Shown: one piece after another, positions 7,598 through 31,096 of the stretch | Layout of the letters: every line of letters starts with the position of its first letter | Position numbering within the stretch: position 1 is the stretch's first letter | DNA from: Shigella phage Sfin-1 | Reading direction: 5' to 3' (one strand) | Length of the DNA: 50,403 nt | Sequence record: NC_047998.1 | Notes under the pieces: model-generated | What the model saw: the letters and a program-made list of their open reading frames with translations, nothing else | The model's database searches: none | What the model was told of the DNA's origin: nothing | Program-made: the position numbers and the translations under genes

Positions 7598-7827
7598 TAT
7601 TCGTAATCACCCTCTTTGTTACCTACGCGCCCTGCAATATATCCGGCGGTCCATACAAACTTGTAGCGGTCGATGAGTAGCTCAACCTTTTTGTGATGAG
7701 TTGAGATCACATCAATCATAATCTTTTCGTTTTTGCGATCTTCTTTCTTCATTCCGCTAACGAATTTATTCAATTCCTTCGCCGCGCGCTTTACCACGTT
7801 CCATTCCGCTTCACTTAAACCAAACAT
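7597..7827 (-). CDS. Hypothetical protein
   Basis: 76-aa ORF, start overlaps upstream stop. Confidence 0.45.
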   Translation of the reverse strand: MFGLSEAEWNVVKRAAKELNKFVSGMKKEDRKNEKIMIDVISTHHKKVELLIDRYKFVWTAGYIAGRVGNKEGDYE

Positions 7828-8171
7828 TATTTACCACTCCCGAATGAAAAGTTGACATTTAAAACCTGATTGCAAACTGATTCCATGTATCGCAACTGAT
7901 ATTGAGCAACCTTTGAAGGACTTAATTCATCAGAAAATAAGTCATCAACATTGATTTCTTTTTTATGCTTGCGCTTCCATGCCTTGATGATATTTGGCAG
8001 GATGCGCTCGCTCTTCCAGGCTGCAAACTCAGCTTGATTCGTTGAAACAGGAGTAAGTTGCTTTTCGATCTGGTTGAGCAACTCGGCAGTTGCTCCTTTT
8101 ACGTGCAATTGGTCGCCAATCGCATCAAGGATTTCACGAGCTTGCTTCTCTGATAGGTTAATCGTAATCAT
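7827..8171 (-). CDS. Hypothetical protein
   Basis: 114-aa ORF, start overlaps upstream stop. Confidence 0.45.
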   Translation of the reverse strand: MITINLSEKQAREILDAIGDQLHVKGATAELLNQIEKQLTPVSTNQAEFAAWKSERILPNIIKAWKRKHKKEINVDDLFSDELSPSKVAQYQLRYMESVCNQVLNVNFSFGSGK

Positions 8172-8377
8172 GCCTCTTCTCCTTCATCTTCGATCGGTGT
8201 AAAAAACTGAGTGTTCACTGCCGGGTTGTAATAAACTCCGTCATCATAGTCGCTTTCTTTCACTTCAATGAAAACGTCGCAACCGTCATGCATGAAATCA
8301 CCGTTATCAGTATGAACGAGTTCGAATACTTCAGAAGTTTTAGTGCAAGTGAAAAACTTATCAGTTGATACCATCAT
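8168..8377 (-). CDS. Hypothetical acidic protein
   Basis: 69-aa ORF, first gene downstream of the promoter cassette at 8410..8453. Confidence 0.45.
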   Translation of the reverse strand: MMVSTDKFFTCTKTSEVFELVHTDNGDFMHDGCDVFIEVKESDYDDGVYYNPAVNTQFFTPIEDEGEEA

Positions 8378-8409
8378 TTCGATTTTCTCTCTTCGTTGTC
8401 GATGAGGTA

Positions 8410-8453
8410 ACTATATCAAATCACCCCACCGACGTTTTAGCAATTCGTGCTAT
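8410..8453 (-). promoter_or_regulatory. Early promoter cassette (TAGCACGAATTGCTAAAAC dyad, 22-bp spacer, TGnTATAGT)
   Basis: Dyad TAGCA-N5-TGCTA; 22 bp to extended -10 TATAGT; the TAG of the dyad is the stop codon of the upstream kinase gene. Confidence 0.55.
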
Positions 8454-9022
8454 TTGTTGATGAACGTAGCGGCTATGTGCTGAGCGGTAATTTCTGGATG
8501 ACCTTCGACAGAGAAGAAATCACACTCCTGATAACCATTAACCCCGATCATATCTTCCAGGTAAATATAATCACGGCTGTCGTTGTCAAAGTTGCAGCCT
8601 TTGCGGTGTATTCGACATAGCTTGACCTGGATATCACCCTCAATCATCTGCAATACCTCATCTTTGAATCCACCATCAGTAAATACTGACAGAGAATATG
8701 ACTCTTTGACCTTGCTTTCCGCTCGCATACCGAAGAATCGATTTCCGAACTGTGGCTTGATGACTTCCTCGCTAATCCAGATCATAAACTGGCGCGGGCT
8801 TTTACCGTTCAGGATTGACGCTGGCTCTTCTTTGTAACGACGGTCCTCATACAAGAACATGAAATACTCGTAGTTAGTTTCACCCAGGATTGCCCGAGCA
8901 ATCTCAAACATTGGTGCTTTAAAGCTGCGCAAAGCTACATGATCGTAAGTGTCAGCCAGGATGCATCCGATAGTGTCCTTGCCTGCTCCAGGAGCGCCGT
9001 TTAAAATGATAGCTGTTTTCAT
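8450..9022 (-). CDS. P-loop nucleotide/nucleoside-monophosphate kinase (T4 Dnk-like)
   Basis: Walker A GAPGAGKDT and an LNGKSP motif that I recall from T4 gp1 dNMP kinase; AGGGAG RBS. Confidence 0.55.
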   Translation of the reverse strand: MKTAIILNGAPGAGKDTIGCILADTYDHVALRSFKAPMFEIARAILGETNYEYFMFLYEDRRYKEEPASILNGKSPRQFMIWISEEVIKPQFGNRFFGMRAESKVKESYSLSVFTDGGFKDEVLQMIEGDIQVKLCRIHRKGCNFDNDSRDYIYLEDMIGVNGYQECDFFSVEGHPEITAQHIAATFINK

Positions 9023-9023
9023 A

Positions 9024-9134
9024 TCAGTATCTCCCTAAAAATAATTTTGCCATATCGATAATAGTGTGATTGATGATTAGCAGGATGATAACCGTCAATA
9101 CCGGATGTGCTGCAATAAATTCGTATAGGTTCAT
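9024..9134 (-). CDS. Small single-pass membrane peptide (36 aa), translationally coupled to both neighbours
   Basis: ATGA overlap with the phosphatase stop; stop 1 nt before the kinase ATG; hydrophobic core VLTVIILLII. Confidence 0.35.
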   Translation of the reverse strand: MNLYEFIAAHPVLTVIILLIINHTIIDMAKLFLGRY

Positions 9135-9607
9135 TTCTCTACCCCGTGCGATTTTAAATGATCGTGAACGTTATCGCCATAGTCAACTACAGCATATGTT
9201 GTTATTCCAAGCGACCGGAATAATGGAATAATTTGCGGTGAGTCATCCCAAGCTGCCAGGATGTTTTCAATACCGATCGCTCGCACCGCTTCTTCTTTCA
9301 TCACCGTGTCTTTCCTGTTGTCTGTGTGCGGTCGCATGACTAAGTAATCATATCTCGCACCGTGATGCTTAAGCCATAACTCAGATGCGTAACGAACCTC
9401 ATCACTTCGCCCGGTTAAAACTATTACGTGATACCCGGCAGCAAACATAGAGTTCATAACCTCAATCGTGCTCTGGATTGGGTTATCAAATATTGCCGCT
9501 CGGTTAAACTCAGACCAGCTTTCAGTTAAGTGCAAATCCTTTGTCGGCAACAGGTGAAGGCGCTTTGATCCATCACTAAGCGTTCCGTCAAAGTCAAAGA
9601 TTGCCAC
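9131..9607 (-). CDS. HAD-superfamily phosphatase (putative nucleotidase or polynucleotide 3'-phosphatase)
   Basis: N-terminal DFDGTL (HAD motif I, DxDGT); GTG start. Confidence 0.6.
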   Translation of the reverse strand: MAIFDFDGTLSDGSKRLHLLPTKDLHLTESWSEFNRAAIFDNPIQSTIEVMNSMFAAGYHVIVLTGRSDEVRYASELWLKHHGARYDYLVMRPHTDNRKDTVMKEEAVRAIGIENILAAWDDSPQIIPLFRSLGITTYAVVDYGDNVHDHLKSHGVEK

Positions 9608-9703
9608 GCGTCGCGTGCCGAGAAACAGGTTGATAGTTTGACCCCAATGGTAATTTTATCCATGATTTATTCCTATGATTGGTTGCTTAACTCAACGAAG
9701 GGC

Positions 9704-9747
9704 ATTCTATCAAATGCCCTTGAGCAAGTTTTAGCAATTAGTGCTAT
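9704..9747 (-). promoter_or_regulatory. Early promoter cassette (dyad plus 22 bp plus TAGAAT)
   Basis: TAGCACTAATTGCTAAAAC followed after 22 bp by TGaTAGAAT; a GGGCATT/AATGCCC hairpin overlaps the -10. Confidence 0.5.
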
Positions 9748-10193
9748 TACCAGCAACTGATCTCGTATTCAGCCCAGCTATCAAACTCTTCCTGACTGAA
9801 TGAGCCGCCGTAATTGTCATGAATATCATCGATCAAAAAGTAGCACGACTCACCGTTACGATAGAAGTATGAATCAGCAACGTTACGCGCCCATGTTCCG
9901 GCGTCCTTCTTGCTCATCTTCCAGTATTTAATTGCAATCTTCTTGAATGCGCGAACTACGCGCTTGCGGATCTTGATATGCTTGTACCCCGCGTTGCAGC
10001 CGTAAGCCATATACTCATTGTTCCCGAGATTCTGCATGATGTACGGATTAACTTCTTTTGAAGCAATCATTAGATCGCCATCGCCTCGATGCGCATCATA
10101 AATGCTTGCTGTCATGTAGTGGCCTTTGAACATTCCAATGCCGTGCAGGGTGTGTTCATTGTTAGGTGTATCAATGCAAATCAAATGTTTCAT
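9747..10193 (-). CDS. Hypothetical protein (148 aa)
   Basis: Start moved to the internal ATG at 10193, which has a GAGGG RBS. Confidence 0.45.
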   Translation of the reverse strand: MKHLICIDTPNNEHTLHGIGMFKGHYMTASIYDAHRGDGDLMIASKEVNPYIMQNLGNNEYMAYGCNAGYKHIKIRKRVVRAFKKIAIKYWKMSKKDAGTWARNVADSYFYRNGESCYFLIDDIHDNYGGSFSQEEFDSWAEYEISCW

Positions 10194-10223
10194 GAGTGTT
10201 CCCTCGTTCGTTGGTGTAGGGGA

Positions 10224-10267
10224 ATCATATCGCATTCCCATTGATAGGTTTTAGCAATTCGTGCTAT
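10224..10267 (-). promoter_or_regulatory. Early promoter cassette (dyad plus 22 bp plus TATGAT)
   Basis: TAGCACGAATTGCTAAAAC, 22-bp spacer, TATGAT; GGGAAT/ATTCCC hairpin. Confidence 0.5.
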
Positions 10268-10469
10268 TCGTTTTAATAGTGATGCAAAAATAATTTTTTA
10301 AGCACGTCACCACGCGCGCTGAATCTACTTGTGGAAGCCTTAAAATTTCATGGACCAGTTGCACTGCCGACACGTCAAAATTGTAGTAGTGTGCGATTCT
10401 GGAGGTATTTGGGAGCATCCCTTCCACTGCGTCACGCGCTGCATCTTCCGCTGTCATGATAGTAGCCAT
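10251..10469 (-). CDS. Hypothetical protein (72 aa)
   Basis: AAGGG RBS; stop lies within the downstream promoter dyad. Confidence 0.35.
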   Translation of the reverse strand: MATIMTAEDAARDAVEGMLPNTSRIAHYYNFDVSAVQLVHEILRLPQVDSARVVTCLKNYFCITIKTNSTNC

Positions 10470-10576
10470 AAAACACCCTTAAGAGATAGAGTCAGAAACA
10501 GGAGGCAGAATAACAACTCATGAAATGATGGAGGTTCGTTTTTCCAGTTCTTAAAGTCAGGCATAAAGCTATTCAT
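10454..10576 (-). CDS. Possible small hydrophobic peptide (40 aa)
   Basis: GAGGTG RBS and ATG just downstream of a terminator-like hairpin; overlaps the next gene start out of frame. Confidence 0.2.
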   Translation of the reverse strand: MNSFMPDFKNWKNEPPSFHELLFCLLFLTLSLKGVLWLLS

Positions 10577-10584
10577 ATTCACCT

Positions 10585-10618
10585 CATAAAAATAGGGAAC
10601 CGCTCAGGAACGATTCCC
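10585..10618 (-). terminator. Putative terminator hairpin after the membrane-anchored tandem-domain gene
   Basis: GGGAA...TTCCC stem followed by a U-rich tract on the minus strand. Confidence 0.3.
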
Positions 10619-10626
10619 ACTTTAAG

Positions 10627-11283
10627 TTAAACTACGAAAAACAGCACGATAAGAGAAATAAGAAGCACGGTAGCCATAGCCAGGTTCGCCAGATTATCAA
10701 TGTCCTTGTTGGTCAGCTTAGGCTTGACTTTACCATCAACTTCGATTGGCTTAACGCTGTGAATCTTACCCTGTTCGATGCGGAAACCGCCCTTGATTCG
10801 ACTGGTATTAAATTTCTGCTTCTTCTTGCCGAACGTTGCAAACTTAGTGCCGCCACTATTCCAGCGAAGACCTTCGCCATTATGCGTTACGGTAGCAATG
10901 CGGTGACGGCCCGTGTCGTCAGTAAGCGCTACAGTGTGCTTTGCGTGCTCAGTAGGAACGTCGTAGATTTTGCCAACAGTAAATTTCTTGGTGTTATCAC
11001 TGATACATTCGAATTTCATAAATTTTACCTCTTTATTATGCAGTTGGTTGATTGCTTCGATTACGTCGTTAAATTTAACACCATCCACGATTCGATGGAA
11101 GATATATTTTGAACTACCGCCATACGGCAGGAAAATTTCTTGGTATTCGTGACGACGGATGATGTTCACATTGCTACCGTGCTCATCCACGACAACGAAG
11201 CTGTCGTTATTGACGCGAGCGCCTTCGTAGATTTTTCCCCACTTAAATCCCGTTCCGTCACTTGATACGCATTCAAATTTCAT
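10627..11283 (-). CDS. Membrane-anchored protein with two tandem copies of a small conserved domain and a C-terminal transmembrane helix
   Basis: Internal repeat MKFECVSSDGTGFKWGKIYEG / MKFECISDNTKKFTVGKIYDV; C-terminal hydrophobic tail LANLAMATVLLISLIVLFFVV. Confidence 0.55.
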   Translation of the reverse strand: MKFECVSSDGTGFKWGKIYEGARVNNDSFVVVDEHGSNVNIIRRHEYQEIFLPYGGSSKYIFHRIVDGVKFNDVIEAINQLHNKEVKFMKFECISDNTKKFTVGKIYDVPTEHAKHTVALTDDTGRHRIATVTHNGEGLRWNSGGTKFATFGKKKQKFNTSRIKGGFRIEQGKIHSVKPIEVDGKVKPKLTNKDIDNLANLAMATVLLISLIVLFFVV

Positions 11284-11885: not shown

Positions 11886-11929
11886 ACTATATCAAATGGC
11901 CTTGCGGAAGGTTTAGCAATTCGTGCTAT
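11886..11929 (-). promoter_or_regulatory. Early promoter cassette (dyad plus 22 bp plus TGaTATAGT)
   Basis: TAGCACGAATTGCTAAACC, 22-bp spacer, extended -10; GGCCA/TGGCC hairpin. Confidence 0.55.
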
Positions 11930-12075
11930 CGTTTAACACACATTGTTTTTACTTCGTATCCGAACGGCTTGTTTTCTGCAATTACTTCCCGAGCCTTGTT
12001 ACATGCTTGCTGACTTTCCATGTATACGTGATCCGGCCCGGTACTCATCAAGATAATCAAGACCCATGCAGCCAT
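11926..12075 (-). CDS. Small membrane peptide (49 aa), below the ORF-track cutoff
   Basis: TAATG overlap with the upstream stop; GAGGTG RBS; hydrophobic N-terminus; its stop is the TAG of the promoter dyad. Confidence 0.3.
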   Translation of the reverse strand: MAAWVLIILMSTGPDHVYMESQQACNKAREVIAENKPFGYEVKTMCVKR

Positions 12076-13368: not shown

Positions 13369-13412
13369 ACTATATCGCAACCCCGGAATTGAGTTTTAAC
13401 AAAAAGTGCTAT
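13369..13412 (-). promoter_or_regulatory. Early promoter cassette (dyad variant TAGCACTTTTTGTTAAAAC plus 22 bp plus cgaTATAGT)
   Basis: Same spacing; GGGGTT/AACCCC hairpin. Confidence 0.5.
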
Positions 13413-13600
13413 TCTTTAATTTCGAAGCAATCAGTATCTTCGTCGAATACCCAGGGGTCGCCATTATCATCAAGCAATGAGACGTTACCGAAGCTGGTTA
13501 GCGACGCACTATAAGGCTTGTCAACGGTAAAGCACTCTTTCACTTCCTGGTCCTCACTACCTTTGAATACTGCAATCATTTGGTGCATAAAATCAGCCAT
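13409..13600 (-). CDS. Hypothetical small acidic protein (63 aa)
   Basis: Acidic ORF immediately after a promoter cassette. Confidence 0.4.
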   Translation of the reverse strand: MADFMHQMIAVFKGSEDQEVKECFTVDKPYSASLTSFGNVSLLDDNGDPWVFDEDTDCFEIKE

Positions 13601-14389: not shown

Positions 14390-14433
14390 ACTATAGCAAG
14401 ATACCCCGATCCGGTTTTAACAATTCGTGCTAT
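14390..14433 (-). promoter_or_regulatory. Early promoter cassette (TAGCACGAATTGTTAAAAC plus 22 bp plus TGcTATAGT)
   Basis: Same architecture; GGGGTA/TACCCC hairpin. Confidence 0.55.
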
Positions 14434-14900
14434 TTGGTGAGATACTTTACCTCACTGCCGGAAATCATATTCCAACCATCATCAAAGAATACGCTATAGC
14501 ATGTTGCCGAGCGATGGCGAATCTTGGATACAGTGCGCCACACCTTACGGCCCGAGTAACCAGTCAGCACACGCATCCCTGGCGATAGCTCACCCGACTT
14601 TCTCACCTTAATGCTCACGTCAGAGTCAAGATCGAACGACCCCAGGCGAACCGGATTGACCATCTCAAACATTCTCATAACTTCGTGATCTTCTTTCCCC
14701 TCGCAGCCACCGCTAGCCTTAACCGCTTCAACAAAATCACTCAGCTTGTCAGTGAGTAAATCGCCATCGTAAGCCTCAATTGAGATGACCGTGTAATGAG
14801 TGTACGTGTGCCAGTGCGATCCGGTTTTGTGCTCGAACGCGAAGAATGACATTTCGCCATCAATCTCATCTTTAGCCAGGAATACGGTAATGGTTGTCAT
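14430..14900 (-). CDS. Hypothetical protein (156 aa)
   Basis: Long ORF with no recognisable motif. Confidence 0.45.
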   Translation of the reverse strand: MTTITVFLAKDEIDGEMSFFAFEHKTGSHWHTYTHYTVISIEAYDGDLLTDKLSDFVEAVKASGGCEGKEDHEVMRMFEMVNPVRLGSFDLDSDVSIKVRKSGELSPGMRVLTGYSGRKVWRTVSKIRHRSATCYSVFFDDGWNMISGSEVKYLTK

Positions 14901-17369: not shown

Positions 17370-17705
17370 ATGAAATACGAAAATCGCGGTAACGAAATCA
17401 TCAAAATCGAAAACGGCGTTGAGTACATCATGGTTGCTTGCAAGGTTAACGGAATGGACTCCTTCGTTTGGGAAGAAATCAAAACTGAAGACAAGGCAGT
17501 TAAATTCCTGACCTGTGTTAACCAGCCCGACATGGATCGCGACACATTCACTCGTTACGGTAAATATGAAATCGTTCGCGAGACTGCTTGCTTCTGGTGG
17601 GTGATGCCTAACAGCCAGTACAAATTCCCGCGCAAAATCAGTAAGCGCACCATGCGTGAAGCTGGCATCAAAGAAGCATACGCCGCTGAGTTCGATATTG
17701 CTTAA
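17370..17705 (+). CDS. Hypothetical protein (111 aa)
   Basis: AGGAG RBS. Confidence 0.45.
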   Translation: MKYENRGNEIIKIENGVEYIMVACKVNGMDSFVWEEIKTEDKAVKFLTCVNQPDMDRDTFTRYGKYEIVRETACFWWVMPNSQYKFPRKISKRTMREAGIKEAYAAEFDIA

Positions 17706-17748
17706 TAGCACGAATTGCTAAACGCCCAGAGCGAGATCGGGGTGTAGT
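17705..17748 (+). promoter_or_regulatory. Early promoter cassette (TAGCACGAATTGCTAAACG, weaker -10 TGTAGT)
   Basis: Starts directly after the TAA stop; 22-bp spacer. Confidence 0.4.
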
Positions 17749-22124: not shown

Positions 22125-22236
22125 GCAAGGGTTGTTGAGTCTGTTACTCACTTCAATGAGGGCCAGTAACGAAAGCGAGCATAATCTTTGCGATAAGGAG
22201 GGGGAGTTACTCCTTCACGTAAAAAGGTACAAATAG
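22036..22236 (+). CDS. Possible hypothetical protein (66 aa) overlapping the 3' end of the previous gene
   Basis: GGAGAG RBS; stop adjoins the next promoter dyad; the overlap makes one of the two calls uncertain. Confidence 0.25.
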   Translation: MKICLANVETLIDRNVELCARLQLTKEEFEQGLLSLLLTSMRASNESEHNLCDKEGELLLHVKRYK

Positions 22237-22277
22237 CACTTTTTGTTAAAACACCCGATCTCGTATCGGGTATATTT
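22235..22277 (+). promoter_or_regulatory. Early promoter cassette (TAGCACTTTTTGTTAAAAC plus 22 bp plus TATATT)
   Basis: CCCGATCTCGTATCGGG hairpin. Confidence 0.5.
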
Positions 22278-24004: not shown

Positions 24005-25156
24005 TTAGTGCGATCCTGTCATTTCTGGACGATAGATGAATCGCCCGATTTCACCAAACTGTTTATCGTAAACGATTACCGCCGCCTGGCGATATGAGCG
24101 CCACCCTCCTCGCGCTGCGTATGCATCTTTCGCGCCTAACTGCCCGTGAACCTCATCAATACCTAACGAGTGTTCAGTAATTGTCTGATGATGCCAGTGT
24201 CCGCTATGCGTGTACACGTATTTGCTTTCACCAAAATCTGCGCGGAAATCTGCTGCCATCGCTGCAAGTCGCGTGTCTGCCTTTTTCATCGTGTGACCGT
24301 GAGTGTATCCCAACAAGGTATTTCCCCAGCGGGTCTTATGCAGAATCATAGGACTAACGTCAACGAATACTCGCGGCTCGTCCTCATAGTATGCAGCCAT
24401 TGCAGCGCGTAGCCAAATCATTCCGGCCTGGTCGTGGTTCCCTTCGATAACCTGAACTTCGACCTCTTTGTGTTTAGTCAGCATTTTGTCGATAGCTCGT
24501 CGCACCGATCGAATAGCCACATGCACCAATTTCGCATATCGTGAATCCTGATCCAGAACGTGACCACTTGCCGGGGTAACAGCATCAAGACCGTCTGAGT
24601 GAAGGAAGTCGCCGCCGATTAACAGAACAGCCTTCTCTGCGTTCGGGGCAATATCGATCGCGTAGTTAAAGAAGTCATTCAGCACTTTTTCCGCTACGTC
24701 TGTAGAGTAGTTCTCTCCGCATTCATGCTTGTGAGCAAGTGCGCCAATGTGAAGATCGAACACCGGGTAGAGTGCCAGCTTGCCAATAGCGGTTGTAAGC
24801 CCTTGCGAGGTGAGTAGCTCAGTTGGTTTTGCTCGCGGCAAGTCTTCACAGAATGCAATACGCGCAGCTTCCATCATTGCCGCAATCTTCTCACGGTCCT
24901 GATCGGTCTTAACCCATCGCACTACCTCGGTCCCATCGCCGCGAATCATAGTTGATGTGCCTTTTACCATGAATCCTTCCGGTACGTTCTTAGCAACATG
25001 CTCGTTACCGTGGAAGTGACCTTCTTTTGCAAGTTTGGCGTGACGCGCTTCAACTGTGCGGATGTGCATACCGTACTTTTCAGCGATCTCGCGAAGTGTA
25101 AGTCCGCTCATGCGCTCTTCGATAAGTTGCTCGGTAGTGATTTTAGCTTGTGACAT
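24005..25156 (-). CDS. Calcineurin-like metallophosphoesterase with N-terminal helix-turn-helix domain
   Basis: Phosphoesterase motifs D-x-H (FDLHIG), GDxxD (GGDFLHSDG), GNHD, GHTH, GHWH; N-terminal LTLREIAEKYGMHIRTVE resembles an HTH. Confidence 0.6.
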   Translation of the reverse strand: MSQAKITTEQLIEERMSGLTLREIAEKYGMHIRTVEARHAKLAKEGHFHGNEHVAKNVPEGFMVKGTSTMIRGDGTEVVRWVKTDQDREKIAAMMEAARIAFCEDLPRAKPTELLTSQGLTTAIGKLALYPVFDLHIGALAHKHECGENYSTDVAEKVLNDFFNYAIDIAPNAEKAVLLIGGDFLHSDGLDAVTPASGHVLDQDSRYAKLVHVAIRSVRRAIDKMLTKHKEVEVQVIEGNHDQAGMIWLRAAMAAYYEDEPRVFVDVSPMILHKTRWGNTLLGYTHGHTMKKADTRLAAMAADFRADFGESKYVYTHSGHWHHQTITEHSLGIDEVHGQLGAKDAYAARGGWRSYRQAAVIVYDKQFGEIGRFIYRPEMTGSH

Positions 25157-25958: not shown

Positions 25959-26002
25959 ACTATACCCGACTTTCGCCGGGTAGTTTTAGCAATTAGTGCT
26001 GT
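25959..26002 (-). promoter_or_regulatory. Promoter cassette (TAGCACTAATTGCTAAAAC plus 22 bp plus TATAGT)
   Basis: Same architecture as the early cassettes; CCCGGCGAAAGTCGGG hairpin. Confidence 0.5.
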
Positions 26003-26244
26003 AAGATCGTGTCGGATTTAAGTTCTTCTACGTCTTTCTGAATGATTGAAGGCCAATGCTCTATGTGTTTATTCTTTATCTCATCGAACGACATATCAAG
26101 AGAACTTGTAAACTCCCATAAATCGCAACCAATAACATCTTGAGTTAATCCGTTTCTCTCCATAATTTCGCAGCACGTAGCGCGATAAAGAAGCCATAAC
26201 CCTTGATCGGTTAATTTAACAGGAACCATTTTTTCGCTCATCAT
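25993..26244 (-). CDS. Hypothetical protein (83 aa), translationally coupled to the Dam gene
   Basis: ATGA overlap with the Dam stop. Confidence 0.45.
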   Translation of the reverse strand: MMSEKMVPVKLTDQGLWLLYRATCCEIMERNGLTQDVIGCDLWEFTSSLDMSFDEIKNKHIEHWPSIIQKDVEELKSDTILQH

Positions 26245-31033: not shown

Positions 31034-31076
31034 CAATAGCACAATGATAAAATCTGTGTTTAGCAATTCGTGCTAT
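31034..31076. promoter_or_regulatory. Paired partial and full dyad element upstream of the tail fiber gene
   Basis: ATAGCACAATGATAAAA (plus orientation) and TTAGCAATTCGTGCTAT (minus orientation) 8 bp apart. Confidence 0.35.
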
Positions 31077-31096
31077 TTACTTAAGGAGTTTACGCT

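What the first reader, a model, noticed from the sequence alone, without database searches (positions are those of the whole stretch)
8450..9607. Translationally coupled HAD phosphatase, 36-aa membrane peptide and P-loop kinase cassette
A HAD phosphatase (DFDGTL motif), a tiny single-pass membrane ORF and a P-loop kinase (GAPGAGKDT; LNGKSP as in T4 dNMP kinase) are chained by ATGA and 1-nt overlaps under one promoter cassette. The pairing of a kinase with a phosphatase resembles a split polynucleotide kinase-phosphatase (T4 Pnkp uses both domains for tRNA repair against host anticodon nucleases), or a nucleotide-salvage pair. No RNA ligase was recognised, so function is open. The embedded membrane micro-ORF is unusual.
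Basis: partly seen in the sequence, partly recalled or inferred. Interest (0 to 1): 0.6.

Follow-up and report, generated by a model that had tools for sequence, protein, structure and literature searches.

The report
T1-phage phosphatase plus dNMP-kinase gene pair
This is the known early gene unit of a T1-like phage, encoding a T4-Pnkp-type 3'-phosphatase, a small lineage-specific membrane peptide and a T4-gp1-like nucleotide kinase; it most likely helps recycle host DNA into phage DNA and is not a split RNA-repair enzyme.

Summary
The three ORFs are real and lie on the minus strand of a Tunavirus genome that is 99.9% identical to Shigella phages Sfin-2, -4, -5 and -6.

- **Phosphatase.** It is a stand-alone Pnkp-type DxDxT phosphatase and keeps every catalytic residue of the T4 Pnkp phosphatase domain. 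Public records call it "polynucleotide kinase", but it has no kinase domain.
- **The pair.** The two enzymes form an old module. Their genes overlap directly in Webervirus and Kagunavirus, are split by 0.1-2 kb of variable small genes in other Drexlerviridae, and are fused into one polypeptide in metagenomic phages.
- **36-aa ORF.** It is truly coding (pN/pS 0.11) but occurs only in Tunavirus. T1 itself has an HNH endonuclease in the same slot.
- **No RNA ligase** was found in the window.
- **Corrections to the finding.** The second junction is a 1-nt gap, not an overlap. The GTG start at 9607 results from a 1-nt homopolymer deletion; relatives start at the ATG at 9663.

Best reading: a module that supplies nucleotides from degraded host DNA. 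Both genes are already annotated and discussed in the literature, so interest is low to moderate.

The parts
9728..9748 (-). Upstream copy of the repeated 21-nt promoter-like element AATAGCACTAATTGCTAAAAC
   Evidence: The window holds 10 copies against 0 expected. The copies share a common downstream architecture.
9700..9719 (-). Inverted repeat GGGCATT/AATGCCC embracing a -10-like TAGAAT (9709-9704), 22 nt after the TTGCTA of the element
   Evidence: Read. The same arrangement, with different but complementary stems, occurs at the other copies.
9661..9663 (-). Ancestral ATG start of the phosphatase gene, with AGGA 9 nt upstream. It is out of frame with the HAD domain in this window.
   Evidence: Alignment with Sfin-2 and SH6. 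The 534-nt CDS is annotated in relatives. N-terminal MDKITIWGQTINLFLGTRRV is conserved in homologs.
9646..9647 (-). Homopolymer (TT here, TTT in relatives) where 1 nt is missing, giving a frameshift or sequencing error
   Evidence: 1501 vs 1502 nt in all near-identical records.
9131..9607 (-). Stand-alone Pnkp-type DxDxT (HAD) phosphatase domain. Motif residues are D5, D7, R16, T65-G-R67, D96-N-R-K-D100, K104 and D121-D122.
9024..9134 (-). 36-aa single-pass hydrophobic peptide gene (MNLYEFIAAHPVLTVIILLIINHTIIDMAKLFLGRY), specific to Tunavirus
   Evidence: Found in 54 phage records, all Escherichia/Shigella T1-like. Of 25 variable sites, 16 are at codon position 3. pN/pS is 0.11. Maximum Kyte-Doolittle 17-mer score is 2.34. 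No Pfam or PHROG family.
8450..9022 (-). P-loop kinase of the T4 gp1 (dNMP kinase) superfamily, in a divergent sister family. Motifs are G14-K-D-T, S75-P-R77-x-x-M80, T-D116-G-G-F-x-x-E122 and D148-S-R150.
8434..8454 (-). Next copy of the promoter-like element. It overlaps the kinase stop codon and marks the start of the following transcription unit.

Best explanation
The stretch 8450-9663 (minus strand) is one early transcription unit of a T1-like phage. It carries an old, functionally linked enzyme pair with a lineage-specific small gene between them.

What the genes encode (shown by homology):
- Gene 1 encodes a phosphatase that corresponds to the C-terminal DxDxT 3'-phosphatase domain of T4 Pnkp, without any kinase domain.
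- Gene 3 encodes a P-loop kinase of the T4 gp1 (deoxynucleoside-monophosphate kinase) superfamily.

How it most likely works (inferred). T1-type phages degrade the host chromosome and reuse its nucleotides, and they encode no DNA polymerase or de novo nucleotide synthesis genes. In that setting:
1. The phosphatase removes 3'-phosphates from DNA ends or from 3'-phosphorylated nucleotides.
2. Exonucleases can then release 5'-dNMPs. In Webervirus and Kagunavirus an Mre11/SbcD-like 'DNA repair exonuclease' is encoded immediately upstream of the pair.
3. The kinase converts dNMP to dNDP.
4. Host NDP kinase completes the dNTPs.

The 36-aa membrane peptide gene (gene 2) is a real but dispensable passenger in a variable insertion slot between the two enzyme genes. 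Its translation is coupled to both neighbours (ATGA overlap upstream; stop, 1 nt, ATG downstream).
For: Phosphatase identity:
- Searches place it with Pnkp phosphatase domains.
- The residues that PMC3592404 describes for T4 Pnkp all have aligned equivalents: Asp165 (nucleophile), Asp167 (acid/base), Ser211 and Lys258 (phosphate contacts) and Asp278 (Mg2+) correspond to D5, D7, T65, K104 and D122. These positions are invariant or nearly invariant in 35 homologs.

Kinase identity:
- Searches place it in the T4 gp1 superfamily.
- Using the 1DEK residue table in PMC10653934 and the alignment, these dNMP-site residues are conserved: R68 (R61), R132 (R77), M135 (M80), W152 (F97), D175 (D116), E181 (E122) and D204 (D148).

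Linkage of the pair:
- The HAD gene lies upstream of the kinase on the same strand in 49 of 52 related loci.
- The two genes overlap directly (ATGA or TAATG) in Webervirus TSK1, Kagunavirus K1H and phage LF82-11.
- Two diverged fusion proteins, P0219 (403 aa) and P0231 (461 aa), have HAD_PNKP at the N-terminus and the kinase at the C-terminus. P0219 is in frame, occurs on three contigs including a 60.8-kb phage-like contig, and its halves are 45% and 50% identical to the window proteins.

Nucleotide-metabolism context of the same kinase family elsewhere:
- It sits near thymidylate synthase and RNR in an rV5-like phage.
- It sits next to RNR alpha/beta and a pyrophosphatase in Colwellia phage 9A.

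Biology and literature:
- T1 and TLS degrade host DNA and reuse the nucleotides (PMC11447400).
- PMC13164509 independently proposes that the PNK and dNMP-kinase genes enhance nucleotide supply.
Against: - No member of either subfamily has been assayed, so substrates are inferred.
- The window kinase does not reach Pfam's gp1 model PF21448 (no hit at E<=1).
- It lacks the aligned equivalents of the 1DEK phosphate-binding and lid residues K37, R177, H206 and E209, and carries its own invariant DSR motif instead. Its acceptor substrate could therefore differ.
- A phosphatase fused to a kinase is also what an end-healing enzyme looks like.
- The nuclease that degrades host DNA in T1 is unknown, so it is not known whether 3'-phosphate ends arise.
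- In this window the phosphatase gene carries a frameshift near its 5' end. If the frameshift is real, the phage tolerates reduced expression of the phosphatase.
Confidence: 0.5

Rival explanations
1. Non-canonical polynucleotide kinase-phosphatase. The Pnkp-type phosphatase and the gp1-fold kinase together heal 3'-phosphate/5'-OH breaks in DNA or RNA made by host defence nucleases or during recombination-dependent replication. The domain order is reversed relative to T4 Pnkp, the kinase fold is different, and host ligases do the sealing.
For: - The phosphatase is a bona fide Pnkp-type domain.
- The two enzymes are fused in some phages. That is typical of enzymes acting on the same broken molecule.
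- In Webervirus and Kagunavirus the pair follows an Mre11/SbcD-like DNA repair exonuclease.
- Several 1DEK dNMP-phosphate and lid residues are replaced in this kinase family.
Against: - The kinase shares only the P-loop with T4 Pnkp. Its best structural and profile relatives are dNMP kinases.
- Base- and sugar-contacting residues of the gp1 dNMP pocket are retained (with PMC10653934).
- No RNA or DNA ligase was found in the window.
- In other phage groups the kinase occurs without the phosphatase, inside nucleotide-metabolism clusters.
Confidence: 0.2
2. Nucleotide-pool control by opposing activities. The HAD enzyme is a mononucleotide phosphatase (5'- or 3'-nucleotidase, by analogy with T5 Dmp or class B/C acid phosphatases). 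It removes particular (d)NMPs while the kinase captures others. This would shape the pool or remove dNMP-type danger signals rather than process DNA ends.
For: - Beyond the Pnkp domains, the next structural neighbours are class IIIB/C acid phosphatases and AphA, which are nucleotidases. There is also a weak Pfam hit to Acid_phosphat_B.
- From my own knowledge, not checked here: the T4 Pnkp phosphatase acts on 3'-dNMPs, and T5 encodes both a dNMP phosphatase and a dNMP kinase.
- The abstract of a 2026 preprint (10.64898/2026.01.15.699771, listed) reports a defence system triggered by m6-dAMP released during phage-induced chromosome degradation.
Against: - The Arg residues aligned with T4 R176 and R213 are invariant.
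- There is no direct evidence for mononucleotide specificity.
Confidence: 0.15
3. The two enzymes are functionally independent. They are neighbours only by shared descent within a block of early genes.
For: - In most Drexlerviridae loci, 0.3-2 kb of unrelated small ORFs separate them.
- In several phage families the kinase occurs alone.
Against: - The order and strand are kept in 49 of 52 loci.
- The genes overlap directly in three separate lineages.
- There are independent in-frame fusions with a conserved linker motif.
Confidence: 0.1

Closest known systems
T4 polynucleotide kinase-phosphatase (Pnkp/PseT), C-terminal phosphatase domain (PDB 1LTQ, 5UJ0), and Capnocytophaga Pnkp1 (4XRP)
   Different: It is a stand-alone 158/177-aa protein with no N-terminal P-loop kinase domain. 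It has an insertion (residues ~17-45, LHLLPTKDLHLTESWSEFN) and a conserved C-terminal HLKSHGV tail. No partner RNA ligase is present. The GenBank name 'polynucleotide kinase' is a misnomer.
T4 gp1 deoxynucleoside monophosphate kinase (PDB 1DEK/1DEL; Pfam PF21448; PHROG 139)
   Different: Only ~12-18% identity, and 50 residues shorter. It is not detected by PF21448. R11, K37, R177, H206 and E209 are not conserved at the aligned positions. It has its own invariant N8, K35, K64-E65, S84-E85, G117-G118-F119 and D148-S149-R150. It is frequently coupled or fused to a Pnkp-type phosphatase, which gp1 is not.
Pseudomonas putida PP_1964 prophage dNMP kinase (PMC10653934) and T5 Dnk
   Same: These are gp1-fold kinases from phages or prophages with unmodified DNA that supply (d)NMP kinase activity. 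PP_1964 was shown in vivo to provide dTMP kinase function (PMC10653934).
   Different: Their relationship to the window's subfamily was not tested here. There is no known association with a phosphatase.
Annotated PNK + dNMP kinase genes of Drexlerviridae (T1, TLS, KanT1; PMC11447400, PMC13164509)
   Same: These are the same genes. They are already annotated by homology and already proposed to be part of nucleotide supply or the replication module.
   Different: Those papers take 'polynucleotide kinase' at face value. They do not report the missing kinase domain, the fusions, the insertion slot or the conserved micro-ORF.

Membership tests
T4-type bifunctional Pnkp (5'-kinase/3'-phosphatase) | DxDxT acylphosphatase domain with the nucleophile Asp, acid/base Asp, phosphate-contacting Ser/Thr and Lys, and Mg2+-binding Asp (T4 D165, D167, S211, K258, D278; PMC3592404) | tested here: met
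T4-type bifunctional Pnkp (5'-kinase/3'-phosphatase) | Pnkp-type P-loop polynucleotide 5'-kinase domain in the same polypeptide (T4 aa 1-147) | tested here: not met
T4-type RNA repair system (Pnkp + RNA ligase) | An RNA ligase encoded in the same genome | tested here: not met
   PHROG scans of 34 non-structural ORFs of >=90 aa listed no ligase; the lists are cut at 25 families. T4 RnlA tblastn against the window found nothing.
T4-type bifunctional Pnkp (5'-kinase/3'-phosphatase) | Polynucleotide 3'-phosphatase and 5'-OH kinase activities | not testable with these tools
   Requires enzyme assays.
T4 gp1 dNMP kinase superfamily (PHROG 139) | gp1-type two-domain P-loop fold and profile-level homology over the full length | tested here: met
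Pfam PF21448 (T4 gp1-type DNMK) | Score above the family's gathering threshold | tested here: not met
   No PF21448 hit for the window kinase at E<=1, whereas all 84 T4 gp1 homologs carry it.
T4 gp1 dNMP kinase superfamily (PHROG 139) | dNMP-binding residues of 1DEK (table in PMC10653934) | tested here: inconclusive
   By the alignment, these are conserved: R68, R132, M135, W152 (as Phe), D175, E181, D204 and R197. These are not conserved: R11, K37, T140, R177, H206, T208, E209 and N223. The family has alternative invariant K35 and R150.
T4 gp1 dNMP kinase superfamily (PHROG 139) | ATP-dependent phosphorylation of dNMPs | not testable with these tools
   Requires enzyme assays.
Small single-pass membrane protein gene | Open frame kept under purifying selection, with one hydrophobic segment of TM length | tested here: met
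   The frame is intact in all 14 Tunavirus copies examined. pN/pS is 0.11 against 1.03 and 5.75 in the other frames. The Kyte-Doolittle 17-mer maximum is 2.34. Membrane insertion itself was not tested.

The most novel reading that the evidence does not exclude
The Pnkp-type phosphatase and the gp1-fold kinase form a second, independently evolved architecture of polynucleotide kinase-phosphatase. They are separate in T1-like phages and fused, phosphatase first, in some metagenomic phages. In this reading a dNMP-kinase fold has been recruited to phosphorylate 5'-OH nucleic-acid ends, so that ligase-less phages can heal breaks made by defence nucleases with host ligases.
Probability: 0.15. Interest if true: 0.6.

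Novelty: new member of a known kind. Interest (0 to 1): 0.3.

Why it matters
The main practical result is a correction of annotation. In well over a thousand phage genomes the gene called "polynucleotide kinase" in T1-like and related phages encodes only the 3'-phosphatase half of Pnkp. The kinase beside it belongs to the dNMP-kinase superfamily.

The conserved pairing and the natural fusions mark the two enzymes as one functional module. This gives a concrete, testable candidate for part of a poorly understood process: how T1-type phages recycle the host chromosome into their own DNA. The genes responsible for that process have not been identified (PMC11447400).

If the kinase instead acted on nucleic-acid ends, it would be a new type of end-healing enzyme. 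As it stands, the finding is an ordinary, already annotated phage gene pair with some new comparative detail.

Tried and rejected
- **Sequence searches of the kinase against solved structures.** Single-sequence and profile searches returned only generic P-loop matches and neither 1DEK nor 1LTQ. Fold and profile-profile comparisons were needed.
- **Pfam and NCBIfam on the kinase.** No family passed threshold.
- **Single-sequence hhalign to T4 gp1.** It aligned the literal LNGKSP strings. The family-to-family alignment rejects this register.
- **Consensus sigma-70 and terminator scan of 7800-10700.** It found no more sites than shuffles give. The promoter-like architecture appeared only by aligning the repeated element.
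- **Idea that the micro-ORF is a decayed remnant of the T1 HNH gene.** Rejected, because local alignment scores no better than shuffles (15 vs 17 +/- 2.3). The apparent intermediate in L033 is a mosaic holding a frame-disrupted micro-ORF copy between HNH fragments.
- **Micro-ORF in Pfam, PHROGs and NCBIfam.** Nothing significant.
- **T4 RnlA and the Pnkp kinase domain against the window.** No match.
- **Literature searches.** No biochemical work on these T1 proteins turned up, and no link between dNMP kinases and defence escape.
- **Long kinase homologs scanned for fusions.** Ten were scanned. Two are HAD_PNKP fusions; the other eight have no recognisable extra domain.

Full report
**What the window is.** The region 8300-9800 is 99.9% identical to Shigella phages Sfin-2, -4, -5 and -6, and about 90% identical to T1, SH6, ADB-2 and other Tunavirus genomes (Drexlerviridae). 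The window is a T1-like phage genome. The genes of the finding lie on the minus strand.

**Checking the observation.**
- The ORF list gives the kinase at 8450-9022 (190 aa), a 36-aa ORF at 9024-9134 and a HAD ORF at 9131-9607 that starts with GTG. The quoted motifs are present.
- The HAD stop and the micro-ORF start overlap as ATGA at 9131-9134.
- The micro-ORF stop (9026-9024) is followed by one spacer base (9023) and then the kinase ATG (9022). This is a 1-nt gap rather than an overlap. GGGAGA lies 8-13 nt before the kinase ATG, inside the micro-ORF.
- The HAD 5' end in the finding is not the natural one. Sfin-2 and SH6 have CCATTTGGGG where the window has CCATTGGGG. All near-identical records are 1 nt longer over this stretch. 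In those relatives the gene is annotated as 534 nt, starting at the ATG that corresponds to window 9663. The extra N-terminal residues (MDKITIWGQTINLFLGTRRV) are conserved in homologs.
- In the window that ATG opens a 45-aa out-of-frame ORF. The window therefore carries a homopolymer frameshift or a sequencing error.
- The family also includes 162-163-aa members that begin a few residues before the DxD motif. The 158-aa reading is thus a complete catalytic domain, but no Shine-Dalgarno sequence precedes the GTG.

**Transcription unit.**
- A generic promoter scan found nothing above chance.
- A 21-nt element, AATAGCACNAATTGCTAAAAC, occurs 10 times in the window (0 expected).
- Each copy is followed, exactly 22 nt after TTGCTA, by a -10-like hexamer embraced by a short inverted repeat. 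The repeat's sequence differs between copies but stays complementary.
- One copy lies upstream of the phosphatase ATG (9728-9748). The next overlaps the kinase stop (8434-8454).
Function of the element is inferred, not shown.

**The phosphatase.**
- Family searches: Pfam gives HAD_PNKP (6.9e-17). PHROGs gives phrog_415 (2e-64).
- Solved structures: a profile of 35 homologs reaches only Capnocytophaga Pnkp1 (3e-15) and T4 Pnkp (1e-8). hhalign covers T4 Pnkp residues 151-298 (97.4%).
- Catalytic residues: PMC3592404 describes T4 Asp165 as nucleophile, Asp167 as acid/base, Ser211 and Lys258 as phosphate contacts, and Asp278 in Mg2+ binding. The aligned residues D5, D7, T65, K104 and D122 are conserved. 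So are R16, R67, D100 and D121, which align with T4 R176, R213, D254 and D277.
- T4 Pnkp matches the window only through residues 157-296.
- Conclusion: the protein is the phosphatase half of Pnkp and nothing more. The database name 'polynucleotide kinase' is misleading.

**The kinase.**
- Pfam, NCBIfam and sequence searches of the PDB give only P-loop noise.
- PHROGs places it in phrog_139, 'deoxynucleoside monophosphate kinase' (1.4e-46). T4 gp1 matches the same family over the same profile span.
- A profile of 39 homologs aligns with a profile of 33 gp1 homologs over 176 columns (98.2%, E 3.7e-14).
- Against T4 Pnkp only the first 27 residues align.
- Viral structure matches are mostly proteins named dNMP kinase.

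**Kinase active-site residues.** I used the 1DEK residue table in PMC10653934 and the alignment.
- Conserved: R68 (R61), R132 (R77), M135 (M80), W152 (F97), D175 (D116), E181 (E122), R197 (R140) and D204 (D148).
- Not conserved: R11, K37, R177, H206 and E209.
- The family has its own invariant K35 and D148-S149-R150.
- The literal LNGKSP shared with T4 is not homologous. It is not conserved in the gp1 family, and the window's SPRQFM aligns with T4's SVRRLM.
- Conclusion: the kinase is a divergent sister family of gp1, below the reach of PF21448. The family is large: 4933 clusters at 50% identity and 1421 phage records.

**Linkage of the two enzymes.**
- In 49 of 52 related loci the HAD gene lies upstream of the kinase on the same strand.
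- In Webervirus TSK1, Kagunavirus K1H and phage LF82-11 the two genes overlap directly. In the first two they follow a DNA repair exonuclease gene.
- In other Drexlerviridae the gap holds 0.3-2 kb of unrelated small ORFs. In TLS the two genes are gp09 and gp14 (PMC11447400).
- Among the 150 best kinase representatives, two diverged proteins are fusions with HAD_PNKP at the N-terminus and the kinase at the C-terminus. They are P0219 (403 aa) and P0231 (461 aa), and they share a linker motif.
- P0219 lies on three contigs, including a 60.8-kb phage-like contig. It is in frame, and its halves are 45% and 50% identical to the window proteins.
- In an rV5-like phage, Colwellia phage 9A and SU7, the kinase occurs without the phosphatase. 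In the first two it sits among RNR and thymidylate synthase genes.

**The micro-ORF.**
- It is found only in Tunavirus: 54 records, at least 88.6% amino-acid identity.
- Among 12 distinct alleles, 25 sites vary and 16 of them are at codon position 3. Of the 22 variable codons, counting the stop, only 5 involve an amino-acid change (one also varies synonymously).
- pN/pS is 0.11 in frame, against 1.03 and 5.75 out of frame.
- It has one hydrophobic stretch of transmembrane length.
- It is therefore a real gene, but not part of the conserved module. T1 has a 164-aa HNH homing endonuclease in its place. One phage (L033) has a mosaic of a broken micro-ORF and HNH fragments. Other lineages carry unrelated small genes there.
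- It has no detectable relatives in the family libraries. Its function is unknown.

**Other genes in the window.** PHROG scans of 34 further ORFs found helicases, methyltransferases, primase, exonuclease VIII, Erf, a DNA repair exonuclease (24005-25156), lysis and tail-fibre proteins, but no ligase. T4 RnlA has no match.

**Interpretation.**
- T1 and TLS degrade the host chromosome and reuse its nucleotides, and the responsible genes are not identified (PMC11447400). PMC13164509 already suggests that the PNK and dNMP-kinase genes extend the replication module to enhance nucleotide supply.
- The evidence here fits that view. A 3'-phosphatase would clear blocked ends or 3'-phosphorylated nucleotides, and a dNMP kinase would push 5'-dNMPs towards dNTPs. 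The substrates are inferred from homology and context, not shown.
- The main rival is a non-canonical end-healing enzyme. It is kept alive by the fusions, the exonuclease neighbour and the altered lid residues of the kinase. It is disfavoured by the kinase's family, its retained dNMP-pocket residues, its stand-alone occurrence in nucleotide-metabolism clusters and the absence of a ligase.

**Novelty and score.** Both genes are annotated in public records and discussed in two papers, and each belongs to a known family. The new points are comparative:
- the missing kinase domain of the so-called PNK;
- the sister-family status of the kinase;
- the fusions;
- the variable slot between the two genes, and the selected micro-ORF in it;
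- the frameshift in this window.

I rate interest at 0.3.

Noticed in passing
8434-8454, 9728-9748, 10248-10268, 11910-11930, 13393-13413, 14414-14434, 25983-26003, 31057-31077 (all -); 17704-17724, 22232-22252 (+): Ten copies of a 21-nt element, AATAGCACNAATTGCTAAAAC (0 expected). Most are followed, 22 nt after TTGCTA, by a -10-like TATAGT or TAGAAT that sits inside a short inverted repeat. The stem sequence differs between copies but stays complementary. Then comes CATCRAAAACGA, then a Shine-Dalgarno sequence and ATG. It looks like a T1-type early promoter cassette with an embedded hairpin.
   Followed up: partly
9646-9647 (and ORF 9526-9663, minus strand): A single-base deletion in a T run, relative to all near-identical phages, puts the natural ATG start of the phosphatase gene out of frame. 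This is either a sequencing error or a recent frameshift.
   Followed up: yes
L003:2226-2720 (phage T1); L033:2726-3004: T1 carries a 164-aa HNH homing endonuclease gene exactly where the window has the micro-ORF. One Tunavirus-like contig (L033) has a mosaic of HNH fragments around a frame-disrupted micro-ORF copy. This suggests homing-endonuclease gain and decay at this slot.
   Followed up: partly
L057:6001-7212; proteins P0219, P0231: Natural single-polypeptide fusions of a HAD_PNKP phosphatase (N-terminal) and the gp1-like kinase (C-terminal), with a shared linker motif (F[DE]GPELHG). They occur on phage-like metagenomic contigs.
   Followed up: partly
HAD homologs P0083, P0138, P0165, P0171 (alignment A4); window 9131-9175: Some relatives, including the ADB-2/JMPW1/IME18 group of Tunavirus, extend the phosphatase by a Cys-rich, zinc-ribbon-like C-terminal tail. 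All family members, including the window protein, end in a conserved but low-confidence HLKSHGV(E/D)K tail that could be a docking motif.
   Followed up: no
BFVD entry A0A7S6HV70 (Escherichia phage JEP1, 518 aa): A 37%-identical kinase homolog is described as containing a DOD-type homing endonuclease domain and is 518 aa long. This suggests an intein-interrupted copy of this kinase.
   Followed up: no
L004:848-3082 (Klebsiella phage TSK1); L005:889-3055 (phage K1H); window 24005-25156: In Webervirus and Kagunavirus an Mre11/SbcD-like DNA repair exonuclease gene directly precedes the phosphatase-kinase pair. In the window the orthologous exonuclease lies 15 kb away, next to the lysis genes.
   Followed up: partly
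9747-10241 (-) and 8168-8377 (-): The flanking genes belong to PHROGs of unknown function (phrog_10642, phrog_10456) and have no Pfam match.
   Followed up: no
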